Assembly: GCF_055900595.2 (NCBI RefSeq)
Contig: NZ_CM148325.1
Direction: 5' to 3' (one strand)
Length of the DNA stretch: 64,000 nt
The notes below the pieces were generated by a model. That model was not told where the DNA came from, did not search any database, and saw nothing but the letters and a program-made list of their open reading frames with translations. The translations under genes were made by a program, and so were the position numbers. Shown piece after piece: positions 48,113 through 49,213 of this stretch (position 1 is the first letter of the stretch; every line of letters starts with the position of its first letter).

Positions 48113-49213
48113 ATGAAATTAAAAATAGTTGCGGTGGTTGTAACTGGTTTGTTAGCTGCGAACGTAGCACATGCTGCCGAAGTATATAACAAGGATGGTA
48201 ATAAACTCGACCTTTATGGCAAGGTTACCGCTCTACGTTATTTTACTGATGATAAGCGTGACGATGGTGATAAAACTTATGCCCGTCTCGGTTTTAAAGG
48301 AGAAACGCAAATCAATGATCAAATGATTGGTTTTGGTCACTGGGAATATGATTTTAAAGGCTATAACGATGAAGCCAACGGCTCGCGCGGCAACAAAACC
48401 CGTCTTGCCTATGCAGGTTTAAAAATTAGTGAATTTGGCTCTCTGGACTATGGTCGTAACTACGGTGTCGGTTATGACATTGGTTCATGGACCGATATGT
48501 TGCCAGAATTTGGTGGAGATACCTGGAGCCAGAAAGATGTCTTCATGACATATCGTACCACTGGTGTGGCAACCTATCGCAACTACGATTTCTTTGGCTT
48601 AATTGAAGGGCTGAACTTTGCCGCACAATATCAAGGCAAAAATGAACGCTCTGATAACGCTCATCTTTATGGTGCTGACTATACGCGTGCCAATGGTGAC
48701 GGTTTCGGTATCTCCTCAACTTATGTTTATGATGGCTTTGGGATCGGTGCTGTGTATACCAAATCTGATCGGACAAATGCGCAGGAAAGAGCAGCGGCTA
48801 ATCCTCTCAATGCCTCCGGTAAGAATGCAGAACTGTGGGCAACAGGTATAAAATATGATGCCAACAACATTTACTTTGCAGCTAATTACGCTGAAACATT
48901 AAACATGACCACCTATGGTGATGGTTATATCTCTAACAAAGCACAAAGTTTCGAAGTGGTGGCCCAATATCAATTCGACTTCGGCTTGCGCCCATCACTC
49001 GCTTACCTGAAATCAAAAGGCAGAGATCTGGGGCGTTACGGCGATCAGGACATGATTGAGTATATCGACGTTGGTGCAACGTATTTCTTCAACAAAAATA
49101 TGTCGACCTATGTTGATTATAAAATCAACCTGATCGATGAAAGCGACTTTACCCGTGCCGTAGATATTCGCACCGATAACATCGTCGCAACGGGCATTAC
49201 CTATCAGTTCTAA
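48113..49213 (+). CDS. yddL: Outer-membrane general porin (OmpC/OmpF/PhoE family), full length
   Basis: 366 aa ORF with signal peptide [22 protein letters not shown]-terminal [16 protein letters not shown] and C-terminal …TGITYQF; sits where I recall a yddL porin fragment in K-12. Confidence 0.8.

What the first reader, a model, noticed from the sequence alone, without database searches (positions are those of the whole stretch)
48113..49213. Full-length general porin where K-12 has only a fragment
A 366 aa OmpC/OmpF-type porin with signal peptide and a C-terminal Phe is intact here. I recall the K-12 gene at this position (yddL) as a short fragment. It sits immediately upstream of the LRR islet and has its own terminator, so it may be an alternative porin that is strain-variable.
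Basis: partly seen in the sequence, partly recalled or inferred. Interest (0 to 1): 0.4.

Follow-up and report, generated by a model that had tools for sequence, protein, structure and literature searches.

The report
Intact E. coli OmpD-type porin gene
This is an intact general-diffusion porin gene, the E. coli counterpart of Salmonella's major porin OmpD, which K-12 and most E. coli have lost by deletion; it is real and probably functional, but it has already been described and is ordinary.

Summary
Window 48113..49213 (+) is an uninterrupted 366-aa porin gene with a signal peptide, the PEFGG constriction loop, a C-terminal Phe and its own terminator. K-12 yddL is its first 93 codons, left by a 1,541-bp deletion into the neighbouring LRR gene.

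By synteny (fdnIHG–yddG–porin–…–narU–narZ) and phylogeny it is the positional ortholog of Salmonella, Citrobacter and Enterobacter OmpD. It is not an OmpC allele, as RefSeq labels it, and not the prophage porin NmpC, as two papers assume.

Across 5,426 complete E. coli genomes the locus has three main states:
- Intact: about 20% (O157:H7, IAI39, EAEC 042).
- K-12-type stub: about 57%.
- Complete deletion: about 20% (e.g. ATCC 25922).

Where the gene is kept, purifying selection is strong (dN/dS 0.02–0.06). Several features suggest a minor or conditional porin rather than a major one:
- Codon adaptation is low (0.37, against 0.68–0.72 for Salmonella and Citrobacter ompD).
- The protein sits on a long branch.
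- The Salmonella MicC, SdsR and RybB target sites are eroded.
- An O157 proteome detected it at only 2 counts.

The gene is already in the literature as Z2239 in EHEC "O-island 62" and as Ec042-1601 "ompD". Interest is low. The added value is a corrected orthology.

The parts
47952..47967 (+). CRP-like site TTCGACTTCGATCACA (8 of 10 matches to TGTGA-N6-TCACA). Candidate activator site; function inferred, not shown.
   Evidence: It is the only site scoring >=7/10 in the 259-bp intergenic region, and it aligns with GGAGATCTCGATCACA of Salmonella and GTAGATCTGGATCACA of C. koseri. GATCACA is invariant in all sequences compared. The centre lies about -81.5 from the Salmonella transcription start, which is placed at -69 from PMC4911921.
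48028..48040 (+). Predicted -10 element (TAAAAA) and transcription start (G at 48040), by homology with the mapped Salmonella ompD start. This gives a ~73-nt AU-rich leader. Inferred only.
   Evidence: Alignment A1. The Salmonella 5' UTR length of 69 nt is deduced from PMC4911921. The generic promoter scan gives only weak consensus hits in this region.
48100..48103 (+). Shine-Dalgarno AGGA, 9 nt upstream of the ATG
   Evidence: Sequence read directly. AAGGAT is conserved in Salmonella and C. koseri.
48113..48175 (+). Signal peptide coding region (21 codons, [22 protein letters not shown]-x-A cleavage motif)
   Evidence: Mature chains of solved OmpC/OmpK36/OmpF structures align starting at residue 22. 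The model shows an N-terminal helix at residues 3-18 with low confidence.
48176..49213 (+). Mature porin (345 aa) plus stop codon: 16-stranded beta-barrel general diffusion porin, OmpD ortholog
   Evidence: Pfam Porin_1 E=2.4e-134. About 60% identity to solved OmpK36/OmpC over the full length. AF2 model pLDDT 75.9 with TM 0.87-0.93 to 2j1n/5nup/6rd3. Phylogeny and synteny.
48494..48520 (+). Loop L3 constriction segment (D128-M-L-P-E-F-G-G-D136), equivalent to OmpF D113...E117...D121
   Evidence: Column-by-column mapping on OmpF numbering. K16, R42, R82, R132, D113, E117, PEFGG and D121 are all conserved, at window residues 37, 58, 97, 148, 128, 132, 131-135 and 136.
48397..49937 (.). Segment deleted in K-12-type genomes (1,541 bp: porin codons 96-366, terminator, LRR1 5' part). 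The junction has a 3-bp CAA microhomology. It matches the published '1,548-bp O-island 62'.
   Evidence: BLAST of K-12 locus L001 against the window and junction sequences. PMC3079680.
47935..52086 (.). Segment absent in the complete-deletion allele (e.g. ATCC 25922): porin promoter, porin and both LRR genes
   Evidence: L015 aligns to window 47772-47934 and then 52087-52378. Only yddG and narU are annotated there.
49225..49258 (+). Intrinsic terminator of the porin gene (GACCAGCCC-TTCTCT-GGGCTGGTT followed by a T-rich run)
   Evidence: Terminator scan: 9 pairs, 6 G-C, loop of 6, T-run.
46972..47853 (+). yddG (EamA/DMT exporter), the conserved upstream neighbour that anchors the orthology
   Evidence: Pfam EamA. 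RefSeq annotation in L001-L003. A 293-aa EamA gene sits in the same position in Salmonella, C. koseri and E. albertii.

Best explanation
The gene encodes a classical trimeric 16-stranded beta-barrel general-diffusion porin. The protein is exported by a Sec signal peptide and inserted into the outer membrane through its C-terminal Phe signal. It should let small hydrophilic solutes diffuse passively through a pore narrowed by loop L3 (PEFGG with acidic D128/E132, facing basic K37/R58/R97/R148).

Evolutionarily it is the vertically inherited E. coli ortholog of Salmonella/Citrobacter/Enterobacter OmpD, sitting in the ancestral slot next to yddG. It is not an OmpC allele and not the prophage porin NmpC/Lc.

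In the Escherichia lineage it appears to have been demoted from a major porin to a minor or conditionally expressed one. It was then lost repeatedly: by a 1.5-kb deletion in the K-12-type majority, by a 4.15-kb deletion in a further fifth of genomes, and by IS1 events in single strains and in E. albertii. It stays under strong purifying selection in the roughly 20% of genomes that keep it.

Shown: integrity, family, fold, pore residues, synteny, phylogenetic position, distribution, deletion junctions, and selection. Inferred: trimer formation, channel activity, CRP-dependent transcription, and low expression level.
For: - Family and fold: Pfam Porin_1 full length; 59-61% identity and TM 0.87-0.93 to OmpC/OmpK36 crystal structures; all OmpF constriction residues and the terminal Phe conserved.
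- Orthology: Salmonella (L004) and C. koseri (L005/L006) have fdnI-fdnH-fdnG(-), yddG(+), porin(+) ... narU, narZ in the same order and orientation. The closest non-Escherichia proteins are C. koseri 78%, E. cloacae 75% and Salmonella 'porin OmpD' 74%, against NmpC 69%, OmpC 62%, OmpN 62%, OmpF 60% and PhoE 59%. In the NJ tree it groups with the yddG-linked Citrobacter/Enterobacter porins (bootstrap 80). The promoter-proximal ~200 nt aligns with Salmonella and C. koseri. E. hormaechei also has yddG and ompD adjacent (PMC11874173).
- Function retained: dN/dS is 0.033, 0.021 and 0.055 among the window, O157 and IAI39 alleles at dS 0.08-0.18. 59 of 60 evenly sampled carriers have an intact CDS annotation.
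- Minor-porin reading: CAI is 0.37 against 0.68 (Salmonella ompD), 0.72 (C. koseri), 0.82 (ompC), 0.66 (ompF), 0.36 (phoE) and 0.47 (ompN). There are 27 lineage-specific substitutions at columns invariant in six relatives, against 0-4 in other chromosomal orthologs. Z2239 was found in the EDL933 proteome with a count of 2 against 36 for intimin (PMC3420319).
- Recurrent loss.
Against: - No direct expression, localisation or conductance data for this allele. The single proteomic detection rests on a count of 2 in a strain carrying several similar porins, so shared peptides cannot be excluded.
- The CAI weights were typed in from memory (Sharp and Li 1987), although the control genes behave as expected.
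- The long branch and 43% GC could also reflect whole-gene replacement from an unsampled donor, which cannot be strictly excluded.
- Deep nodes of the NJ tree within the OmpD/NmpC clade are poorly supported (bootstrap 2-31), so orthology rests mainly on synteny plus best-hit ranking.
- Survey percentages come from a collection biased towards clinical and O157 genomes. For the two deletion classes they are extrapolated from evenly spaced samples of 40-60 rows.
Confidence: 0.85

Rival explanations
1. It is a second copy or allele of OmpC, as RefSeq/PGAP labels it ('ompC: porin OmpC') in more than a thousand genomes.
For: It scores 496.5 bits on the NCBIfam 'porin OmpC' model NF007841, just above the 484 cut-off. 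The best solved-structure matches are OmpK36/OmpC.
Against: NF007841 is a 'subfamily' model, not an equivalog. Identity to K-12 OmpC is only 62%, lower than to OmpD (74-78%) and NmpC (69%), and it falls in a different clade. True ompC lies next to micF and rcsD at another locus. The synteny matches ompD of Salmonella and Citrobacter.
Confidence: 0.03
2. It is the E. coli NmpC/Lc-type porin, that is, a prophage-borne or horizontally acquired gene that belongs to the low-GC 'O-island 62' together with the LRR genes. The literature implies this when it equates E. coli OmpD with nmpC or treats the whole interval as a recently acquired island.
For: PMC2808357 aligns Ec042-1601 with K-12 nmpC as 'OmpD (NmpC)'. 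PMC3333887 says the E. coli ompD-like gene is nmpC. PMC3079680 treats z2239-z2242 as one island with 33-36% GC. The gene's GC (43%) is below its flanks, and it sits on a long branch.
Against: - No phage genes flank it, whereas K-12 nmpC lies inside prophage DLP12 between quuD and the lysis genes.
- The best phage-encoded relatives are only 69% identical, and NmpC/Lc form a separate clade with bootstrap 96-100.
- The same slot holds the ortholog in Salmonella, Citrobacter and E. albertii.
- The upstream regulatory region is conserved across genera.
- GC is uniform at 0.40-0.47 across the porin against 0.29-0.37 in the LRR genes, with no divergence gradient toward the island.
- No closer donor was found among 5.8 billion proteins.
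Confidence: 0.07
3. It is an intact-looking but silent ('quiescent') gene on its way to becoming a pseudogene, with no current function.
For: Low CAI, like the quiescent ompN and conditional phoE. Repeated independent deletions in most of the species and in E. albertii. A shortened upstream region, 259 bp against 524-568 bp. Loss of the Salmonella sRNA target sites.
Against: dN/dS of 0.02-0.06 across alleles separated by dS up to 0.18 is incompatible with neutral drift. About 98% of sampled carriers have an intact reading frame. All pore-lining and assembly residues are conserved. The protein was detected in EDL933 (PMC3420319).
Confidence: 0.05

Closest known systems
Salmonella enterica OmpD (STM1572, also called nmpC in the LT2 annotation) and its Citrobacter/Enterobacter orthologs
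   Same: Same chromosomal slot directly downstream of yddG and fdnGHI, on the narU/narZ side. These are the closest named relatives, at 72-78% identity. Same length class, signal peptide type, L3 motif and C-terminal Phe. The promoter-proximal region is alignable, including a CRP-like half-site and the -10 region.
   Different: - Codon adaptation is 0.37 against 0.68-0.72, and GC is 43% against 50%.
- There are 27 lineage-specific substitutions.
- The upstream intergenic region is half as long.
- Predicted RybB and MicC pairing at the published sites is strong in Salmonella and C. koseri (-17 to -21 kcal/mol; MicC matched by <=1.5% of shuffles, RybB by 4-9.5%). It is no better than shuffles in the E. 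coli alleles (-11 to -14). The SdsR site GTTGGCAGCAGGC is GTTAGCTGCGAAC here.
- The downstream neighbours differ: a GFA-domain gene, smvA and smvR in Salmonella and Citrobacter, LRR genes in E. coli.
E. coli Z2239 (EDL933, O-island 62) / Ec042-1601 'ompD' (EAEC 042) / K-12 yddL
   Same: This is the same gene. Ec042-1601 in Fig. S12 of PMC2808357 has the same N-terminal sequence. Z2239 is the first ORF of O-island 62 between yddG and narU, and yddL matches its 5' end (PMC3079680). The O157 allele is 98.9% identical in protein.
   Different: The window allele differs by about 4% in DNA because the whole window comes from a rare, deeply branching lineage. The literature either mis-pairs the gene with nmpC (PMC2808357) or never identifies it as a porin and lumps it with the acquired LRR island (PMC3079680).
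NmpC / Lc porins of lambdoid prophages (DLP12, PA-2 and related phages)
   Same: Same wider clade of the general-porin family, 67-69% identity. Often given the name OmpD in phage records.
   Different: Prophage context, a different signal peptide (MKKLTVAISAVAASVLMAMSAQA) and a separate well-supported clade.
OmpC, OmpF, PhoE and OmpN of E. coli K-12
   Same: Same Pfam family and fold, and identical constriction-zone core residues.
   Different: 59-62% identity, other loci, other regulators.

Membership tests
General bacterial porin family (Pfam PF00267 Porin_1; OmpC/OmpF/PhoE type) | Full-length match to the family profile above the curated threshold | tested here: met
   448.5 bits against a cut-off of 23.7, profile positions 1-337 of 337
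General bacterial porin family (Pfam PF00267 Porin_1; OmpC/OmpF/PhoE type) | 16-stranded antiparallel beta-barrel fold | tested here: met
   The AF2 model shows 17 strand elements, the first and last together forming the split strand as in OmpF. TM 0.87/0.91 to OmpC 2j1n, rmsd 2.3 A.
General bacterial porin family (Pfam PF00267 Porin_1; OmpC/OmpF/PhoE type) | Loop L3 constriction with the PEFGG motif, acidic D113/E117 and the basic cluster K16/R42/R82/R132 (OmpF numbering) | tested here: met
   All conserved, at window residues 131-135, 128, 132, 37, 58, 97 and 148
General bacterial porin family (Pfam PF00267 Porin_1; OmpC/OmpF/PhoE type) | Cleavable signal peptide and C-terminal Phe assembly signal | tested here: met
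   AHA|AEVYNK, with mature chains of solved porins aligning from residue 22. F366 aligns with OmpF F340.
General bacterial porin family (Pfam PF00267 Porin_1; OmpC/OmpF/PhoE type) | Trimer formation and non-specific channel conductance | not testable with these tools
   Needs purification, SDS-PAGE of unheated samples and planar-bilayer or liposome-swelling assays
OmpD orthologous group (Salmonella STM1572 type) | Chromosomal position immediately downstream of yddG, between fdnGHI and narU/narZ | tested here: met
   Same order and orientation in Salmonella L004, C. koseri L005/L006, E. albertii L007 and the window
OmpD orthologous group (Salmonella STM1572 type) | Closer to OmpD than to any other named porin, and clusters with OmpD in a tree | tested here: met
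   74-78% to OmpD-type porins against 69% to NmpC and 59-62% to OmpC/N/F/PhoE. Groups with the Citrobacter/Enterobacter yddG-linked porins at bootstrap 80. Deeper nodes are weak.
OmpD orthologous group (Salmonella STM1572 type) | Major, highly abundant porin (>10^5 copies per cell in Salmonella, PMC3333887) | tested here: not met
   Indirect only: CAI 0.37 against 0.68-0.72 for Salmonella and C. koseri, and a proteome count of 2 in EDL933 (PMC3420319). This is a property of expression, not of descent, so it does not argue against orthology.
OmpD orthologous group (Salmonella STM1572 type) | Repression by RybB, SdsR and MicC pairing within codons ~4-26 of the coding sequence | tested here: not met
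   In silico only. E. coli alleles give RybB -14.3 and MicC -11.2/-11.9 kcal/mol, within the shuffle distribution. Salmonella and C. koseri give -17 to -21 kcal/mol; MicC is matched by <=1.5% of shuffles and RybB by 4-9.5%. The SdsR site is altered at 5 of 13 positions.
OmpD orthologous group (Salmonella STM1572 type) | cAMP-CRP-dependent transcription (recalled from Santiviago et al. 2003; not retrieved here) | tested here: inconclusive
   A CRP-like site (8/10) is conserved in position across genera. There is no binding or expression data.
OmpC (RefSeq/PGAP label) | Orthology to K-12 ompC (b2215), adjacent to micF and rcsD | tested here: not met
   Different locus, 62% identity, different clade. 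The NCBIfam hit is to a subfamily-level model, just above cut-off.
NmpC/Lc prophage porins | Location in a lambdoid prophage and membership of the NmpC/Lc clade | tested here: not met
   No phage genes in the neighbourhood. K-12 nmpC is inside DLP12. The NmpC/Lc clade is separate, with bootstrap 96-100. Best phage hit is 69%.

The most novel reading that the evidence does not exclude
The Escherichia OmpD ortholog is more than a fading copy of a major porin. After a burst of lineage-specific change (27 substitutions at otherwise invariant positions, loss of the MicC/SdsR/RybB control sites, loss of codon bias), it became a specialised, low-abundance channel that is kept under strong constraint in certain lineages (O157:H7, IAI39, EAEC 042 and the deep lineage of this window). 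One possibility is that it serves as the outer-membrane partner of the adjacent YddG exporter, as the Salmonella yddG/ompD methyl-viologen efflux phenotype suggests. Another is that it acts as a surface determinant whose presence or absence shapes phage, colicin, antibody or antibiotic susceptibility. Under that reading, its three-state polymorphism would reflect selection rather than drift.
Probability: 0.15. Interest if true: 0.5.

Novelty: already known. Interest (0 to 1): 0.22.

Why it matters
Porin repertoire affects antibiotic entry, phage and colicin sensitivity, and recognition by antibodies. In Salmonella, OmpD is the most abundant porin and a protective antigen. A common view, stated in the papers read here, is that E. 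coli's OmpD equivalent is the prophage pseudogene nmpC. The evidence here shows instead that the true positional ortholog is the yddL locus. It is intact in about a fifth of sequenced E. coli, including O157:H7 and EAEC 042, and mislabelled 'OmpC' in RefSeq. This is a useful annotation and orthology correction for people comparing porin-dependent phenotypes, sRNA regulons or vaccine antigens between Salmonella and E. coli. It is not a new biological principle.

Tried and rejected
1. Conservation of Salmonella ompD sRNA control. RNAduplex of E. coli RybB (nt 1-20), MicC (nt 1-25) and full-length SdsR against -75..+120 of four orthologs, with 200 dinucleotide shuffles each. Salmonella and C. koseri recover the published sites; the E. 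coli alleles do not. The full-length SdsR duplex calculation was uninformative because long artificial duplexes form, so the SdsR site was compared by eye in the alignment instead.
2. Rfam scan of 46500-52500 at E<=1: nothing found.
3. Partial xenologous replacement adjoining the LRR island: a sliding-window identity and GC profile shows no gradient.
4. OmpC allele and prophage NmpC readings: rejected by locus, identity and tree.
5. Generic sigma-70 scan of the upstream region: only weak 9/12 hits, none convincing. The promoter was placed by homology with Salmonella instead.
6. Literature searches for expression data: 'yddL + porin' gave nothing functional. 'ompD' in ATCC 25922 (PMC7696260) turned out to be a prophage Lc-type porin, since that strain lacks this locus. 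Only one proteomic detection of Z2239 was found.
7. The first CAI attempt failed for lack of the Biopython index.
8. Bootstrap support within the OmpD/NmpC clade is weak at deep nodes (2-31%), so I do not claim a resolved branching order between the Salmonella OmpD group, the Citrobacter/Enterobacter/Escherichia group and the prophage group.
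Full report
**1. Observation**

Window 48113..49213 (+) is an uninterrupted ATG-initiated ORF of 366 codons ending in …GITYQF-stop.
- AGGA lies 9 nt upstream of the ATG.
- A 9-bp G+C-rich hairpin with a T-rich tail follows at 49225-49258.
- Pfam Porin_1 covers residues 27-366 against the whole profile, E=2.4e-134.
- Mature chains of solved OmpC/OmpK36/OmpF structures align from residue 22, so the signal peptide is [21 protein letters not shown].
- The gene lies between yddG (46972-47853, EamA family) and two leucine-rich-repeat genes (49377-50636 and 50698-51948). fdnGHI is on one side and narU/narZ on the other.

**2. The K-12 state**

RefSeq annotates K-12 yddL in the same slot as 'porin, incomplete, missing C-terminus'. 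Aligning the K-12 locus with the window shows colinearity up to 48396, then a jump to 49938 inside LRR1. A second jump goes from 50260 to 50892 inside LRR2.
- The first junction (GGCAA|GAATCT) has a 3-bp CAA microhomology.
- It leaves a 96-aa product: 93 porin residues plus KNL.
- K-12 yddK is therefore a deletion chimera of the two LRR genes, not an insertion.

**3. Family, fold and pore**
- Identity to solved OmpK36/OmpC is about 60% over the whole mature chain.
- An AlphaFold2 model (28-sequence alignment, mean pLDDT 75.9) has the expected strand pattern. It superposes on OmpC 2j1n and OmpK36 with TM 0.87-0.93.
- Mapped on OmpF numbering, K16, R42, R82, R132, D113, E117, the PEFGG motif, D121 and the terminal Phe are all conserved.

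**4. Which porin it is**

NCBIfam places it just above the cut-off of the subfamily-level 'porin OmpC' model, and below the OmpF and PhoE equivalog cut-offs. This explains the RefSeq label 'ompC: porin OmpC'.

A search of 5.8 billion proteins finds its closest non-Escherichia relatives in C. koseri (78%), Enterobacter (73-75%) and proteins NCBI names 'porin OmpD' in Salmonella (72%) and C. freundii (71%). Prophage NmpC/Lc porins follow at 67%.

| Compared with | Identity (MAFFT alignment) |
|---|---|
| C. koseri | 78% |
| E. cloacae | 75% |
| Salmonella OmpD | 74% |
| NmpC | 69% |
| OmpC | 62% |
| OmpN | 62% |
| OmpF | 60% |
| PhoE | 59% |

The protein groups with the Citrobacter/Enterobacter porins (bootstrap 80). 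NmpC/Lc form their own clade (96-100), although deeper nodes are unresolved.

Synteny is decisive. In Salmonella (L004) and C. koseri (L005/L006) the order is fdnI-fdnH-fdnG (−), a 293-aa EamA gene (+), the porin (+), then a GFA-domain gene, an MFS gene (−), a TetR gene, narU and narZ. E. albertii has the same slot occupied by a 91%-identical gene broken by IS1. E. hormaechei also has yddG and ompD adjacent (PMC11874173). By contrast, K-12 nmpC sits inside prophage DLP12, and ompC sits next to micF and rcsD.

The window gene is therefore the positional ortholog of OmpD. The GFA–smvA–smvR segment of Salmonella and Citrobacter is replaced in E. coli by the low-GC LRR genes.

**5. Distribution**

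| State of the yddG–narU interval | Evidence | Examples |
|---|---|---|
| Intact porin | The part missing from K-12 (48397-49213) occurs in 1,118 of 5,426 complete genomes; 1,101 hold ≥80% of it, almost always once and chromosomally; 59 of 60 evenly spaced sample rows carry an intact CDS annotation | O157:H7, O145, IAI39 |
| K-12-type truncation | ~57% of evenly sampled rows | K-12, BL21, O104:H4, O103 |
| Complete deletion (only yddG and narU remain) | ~20% of evenly sampled rows; removes window 47935-52086 | ATCC 25922 |

Strain 144 has yet another event, an IS1-mediated deletion. From general knowledge of these reference strains, the intact state corresponds to phylogroups D, E and F, the truncation to A and B1, and the full deletion to B2. 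I did not compute phylogroups.

The window itself comes from a rare, deeply branching lineage. maeA is only 95-96% identical to almost all E. coli, and only 8-18 records match any tested part of the window at ≥99%. Presence of the intact gene in this lineage and, in disrupted form, in E. albertii argues that the full-length state is ancestral.

**6. Selection and expression level**

Pairwise Nei-Gojobori estimates among three alleles:

| Pair | dN/dS | Synonymous / non-synonymous |
|---|---|---|
| Window vs O157 | 0.033 | 38 / 5 |
| Window vs IAI39 | 0.021 | 36 / 3 |
| O157 vs IAI39 | 0.055 | 19 / 4 |

This shows clear purifying selection.

Several features also separate the Escherichia gene from its orthologs:
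- The codon adaptation index is 0.37. This resembles phoE (0.36) and ompN (0.47), and contrasts with Salmonella ompD (0.68), C. koseri (0.72), ompF (0.66) and ompC (0.82). GC is 43% against 50% (weights entered from memory).
- There are 27 substitutions at columns invariant in six relatives, against 0-4 for other chromosomal orthologs.
- The upstream intergenic region is 259 bp against 524-568 bp.
- The published RybB and MicC sites give strong pairing in Salmonella and C. koseri, with MicC clearly beyond shuffled controls. In the E. coli alleles, pairing stays within the shuffle distribution. The SdsR site is changed at 5 of 13 positions (site positions from PMC3333887 and PMC4911921).

What is conserved upstream is a CRP-like site (47952-47967, 8/10 matches), the −10 region, the AU-rich leader and the SD.

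The only expression evidence found is detection of Z2239 in the DMEM proteome of EDL933, with a count of 2 against 36 for intimin (PMC3420319).

Taken together, the gene is functional but most likely encodes a minor or conditionally expressed porin in E. coli. That would make its repeated loss tolerable.

**7. Alternative: acquisition with the LRR island**

Okeke et al. treat z2239-z2242 as one recently acquired low-GC island (PMC3079680). The evidence here does not support that for the porin:
- GC is uniformly 0.40-0.47 across the porin, against 0.29-0.37 in the LRR genes.
- Divergence from the Citrobacter and Salmonella orthologs is even along the gene and dips only in the surface-loop regions, as in the Citrobacter–Salmonella control.
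- The promoter region is conserved across genera.
- No closer donor exists in the protein or phage collections.

Whole-gene replacement cannot be strictly excluded. Vertical descent with lineage-specific divergence is the simpler reading.

**8. What is already known**

The gene is Z2239 of EDL933 and the first ORF of 'O-island 62'. Okeke et al. (2011) already noted that K-12 yddL matches its 5' end and that the EHEC/EAEC form is probably ancestral. Chaudhuri et al. (2010) called the EAEC 042 copy (Ec042-1601) 'an apparently functional ompD', and their Figure S12 shows the same sequence. However, they paired it with K-12 nmpC. Fröhlich et al. (2012) likewise equate E. coli OmpD with nmpC.

The contributions of this analysis are:
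- the explicit orthology yddL/Z2239 = OmpD (not nmpC, not OmpC);
- exact deletion junctions;
- a three-state survey over 5,426 genomes;
- evidence for demotion to a minor porin.

**9. Verdict**

The gene is already known and of low interest (0.22).

Noticed in passing
window 49377-50636 and 50698-51948: Two intact leucine-rich-repeat genes (419 and 416 aa; GC 33-35%; CAI about 0.2) lie downstream of the porin. The O157 homolog of the second is annotated 'T3SS effector EspR1'. K-12 yddK/yddJ is a chimera of the two, produced by deletions 48397-49937 and 50261-50891. It is not an insertion, as PMC3079680 suggested. In O157 and IAI39 the first LRR gene is itself broken.
   Followed up: partly
window 41496-42005 (-): A 169-aa ORF resembles an IS200/IS605-type TnpA (motif HTRWNCKYHIVFAPKYRR; recognised by eye, not checked against a family library). 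It lies in a ~700-bp segment between the higA-like yddM gene (41103-41387) and fdnI. That segment is absent from the otherwise 99.9%-identical strain Z0117EC0005.
   Followed up: partly
whole window, tested on 37770-39494 (maeA) and 46972-53661: The window comes from a rare, deeply branching lineage filed as E. coli. maeA is 95-96% identical to almost all 5,413 genomes, with only 8 records at >=99%. Strain AST85 matches the 46972-53661 interval at 100.0%, and Z0117EC0005 matches at 99.9-100%.
   Followed up: partly
L004 8233-10821; L005 8182-10809: In Salmonella and C. koseri the slot between ompD and narU holds a GFA-domain gene, an MFS gene (smvA by position, minus strand) and a TetR gene (smvR). 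So yddG, ompD and smvA, the three genes reported to be needed for methyl-viologen efflux in Salmonella, are clustered there. E. coli has the LRR genes in that position instead.
   Followed up: no
protein P0001 (ENA metagenome contig, 365 aa): The N-terminal ~95 residues are OmpC/OmpN-like and the rest is nearly identical to this porin. This is either an assembly chimera or a natural recombinant between porin genes.
   Followed up: no
window 43693-46104 and 46153-46740 (-): fdnG appears as two adjacent ORFs on the minus strand, while RefSeq annotates fdnG as a single 3,048-nt CDS. This is the split expected from its in-frame UGA selenocysteine codon (general knowledge; the codon itself was not read). 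It is not a pseudogene.
   Followed up: no
L015 (ATCC 25922) and PMC7696260: The 'ompD' reported as down-regulated in olaquindox-resistant ATCC 25922 is described there as 'outer membrane porin protein LC', a prophage-type porin. That strain has the complete deletion of the yddG-narU interval, so it cannot be this gene. This illustrates the naming confusion.
   Followed up: yes
L017 (strain 144) 2227-3680; L007 (E. albertii) 6137-8014: Two independent IS1-associated inactivations of the same porin gene were found: a deletion of the yddG 3' end plus the porin 5' part in E. coli strain 144, and an IS1 insertion splitting the gene in E. albertii.
   Followed up: partly
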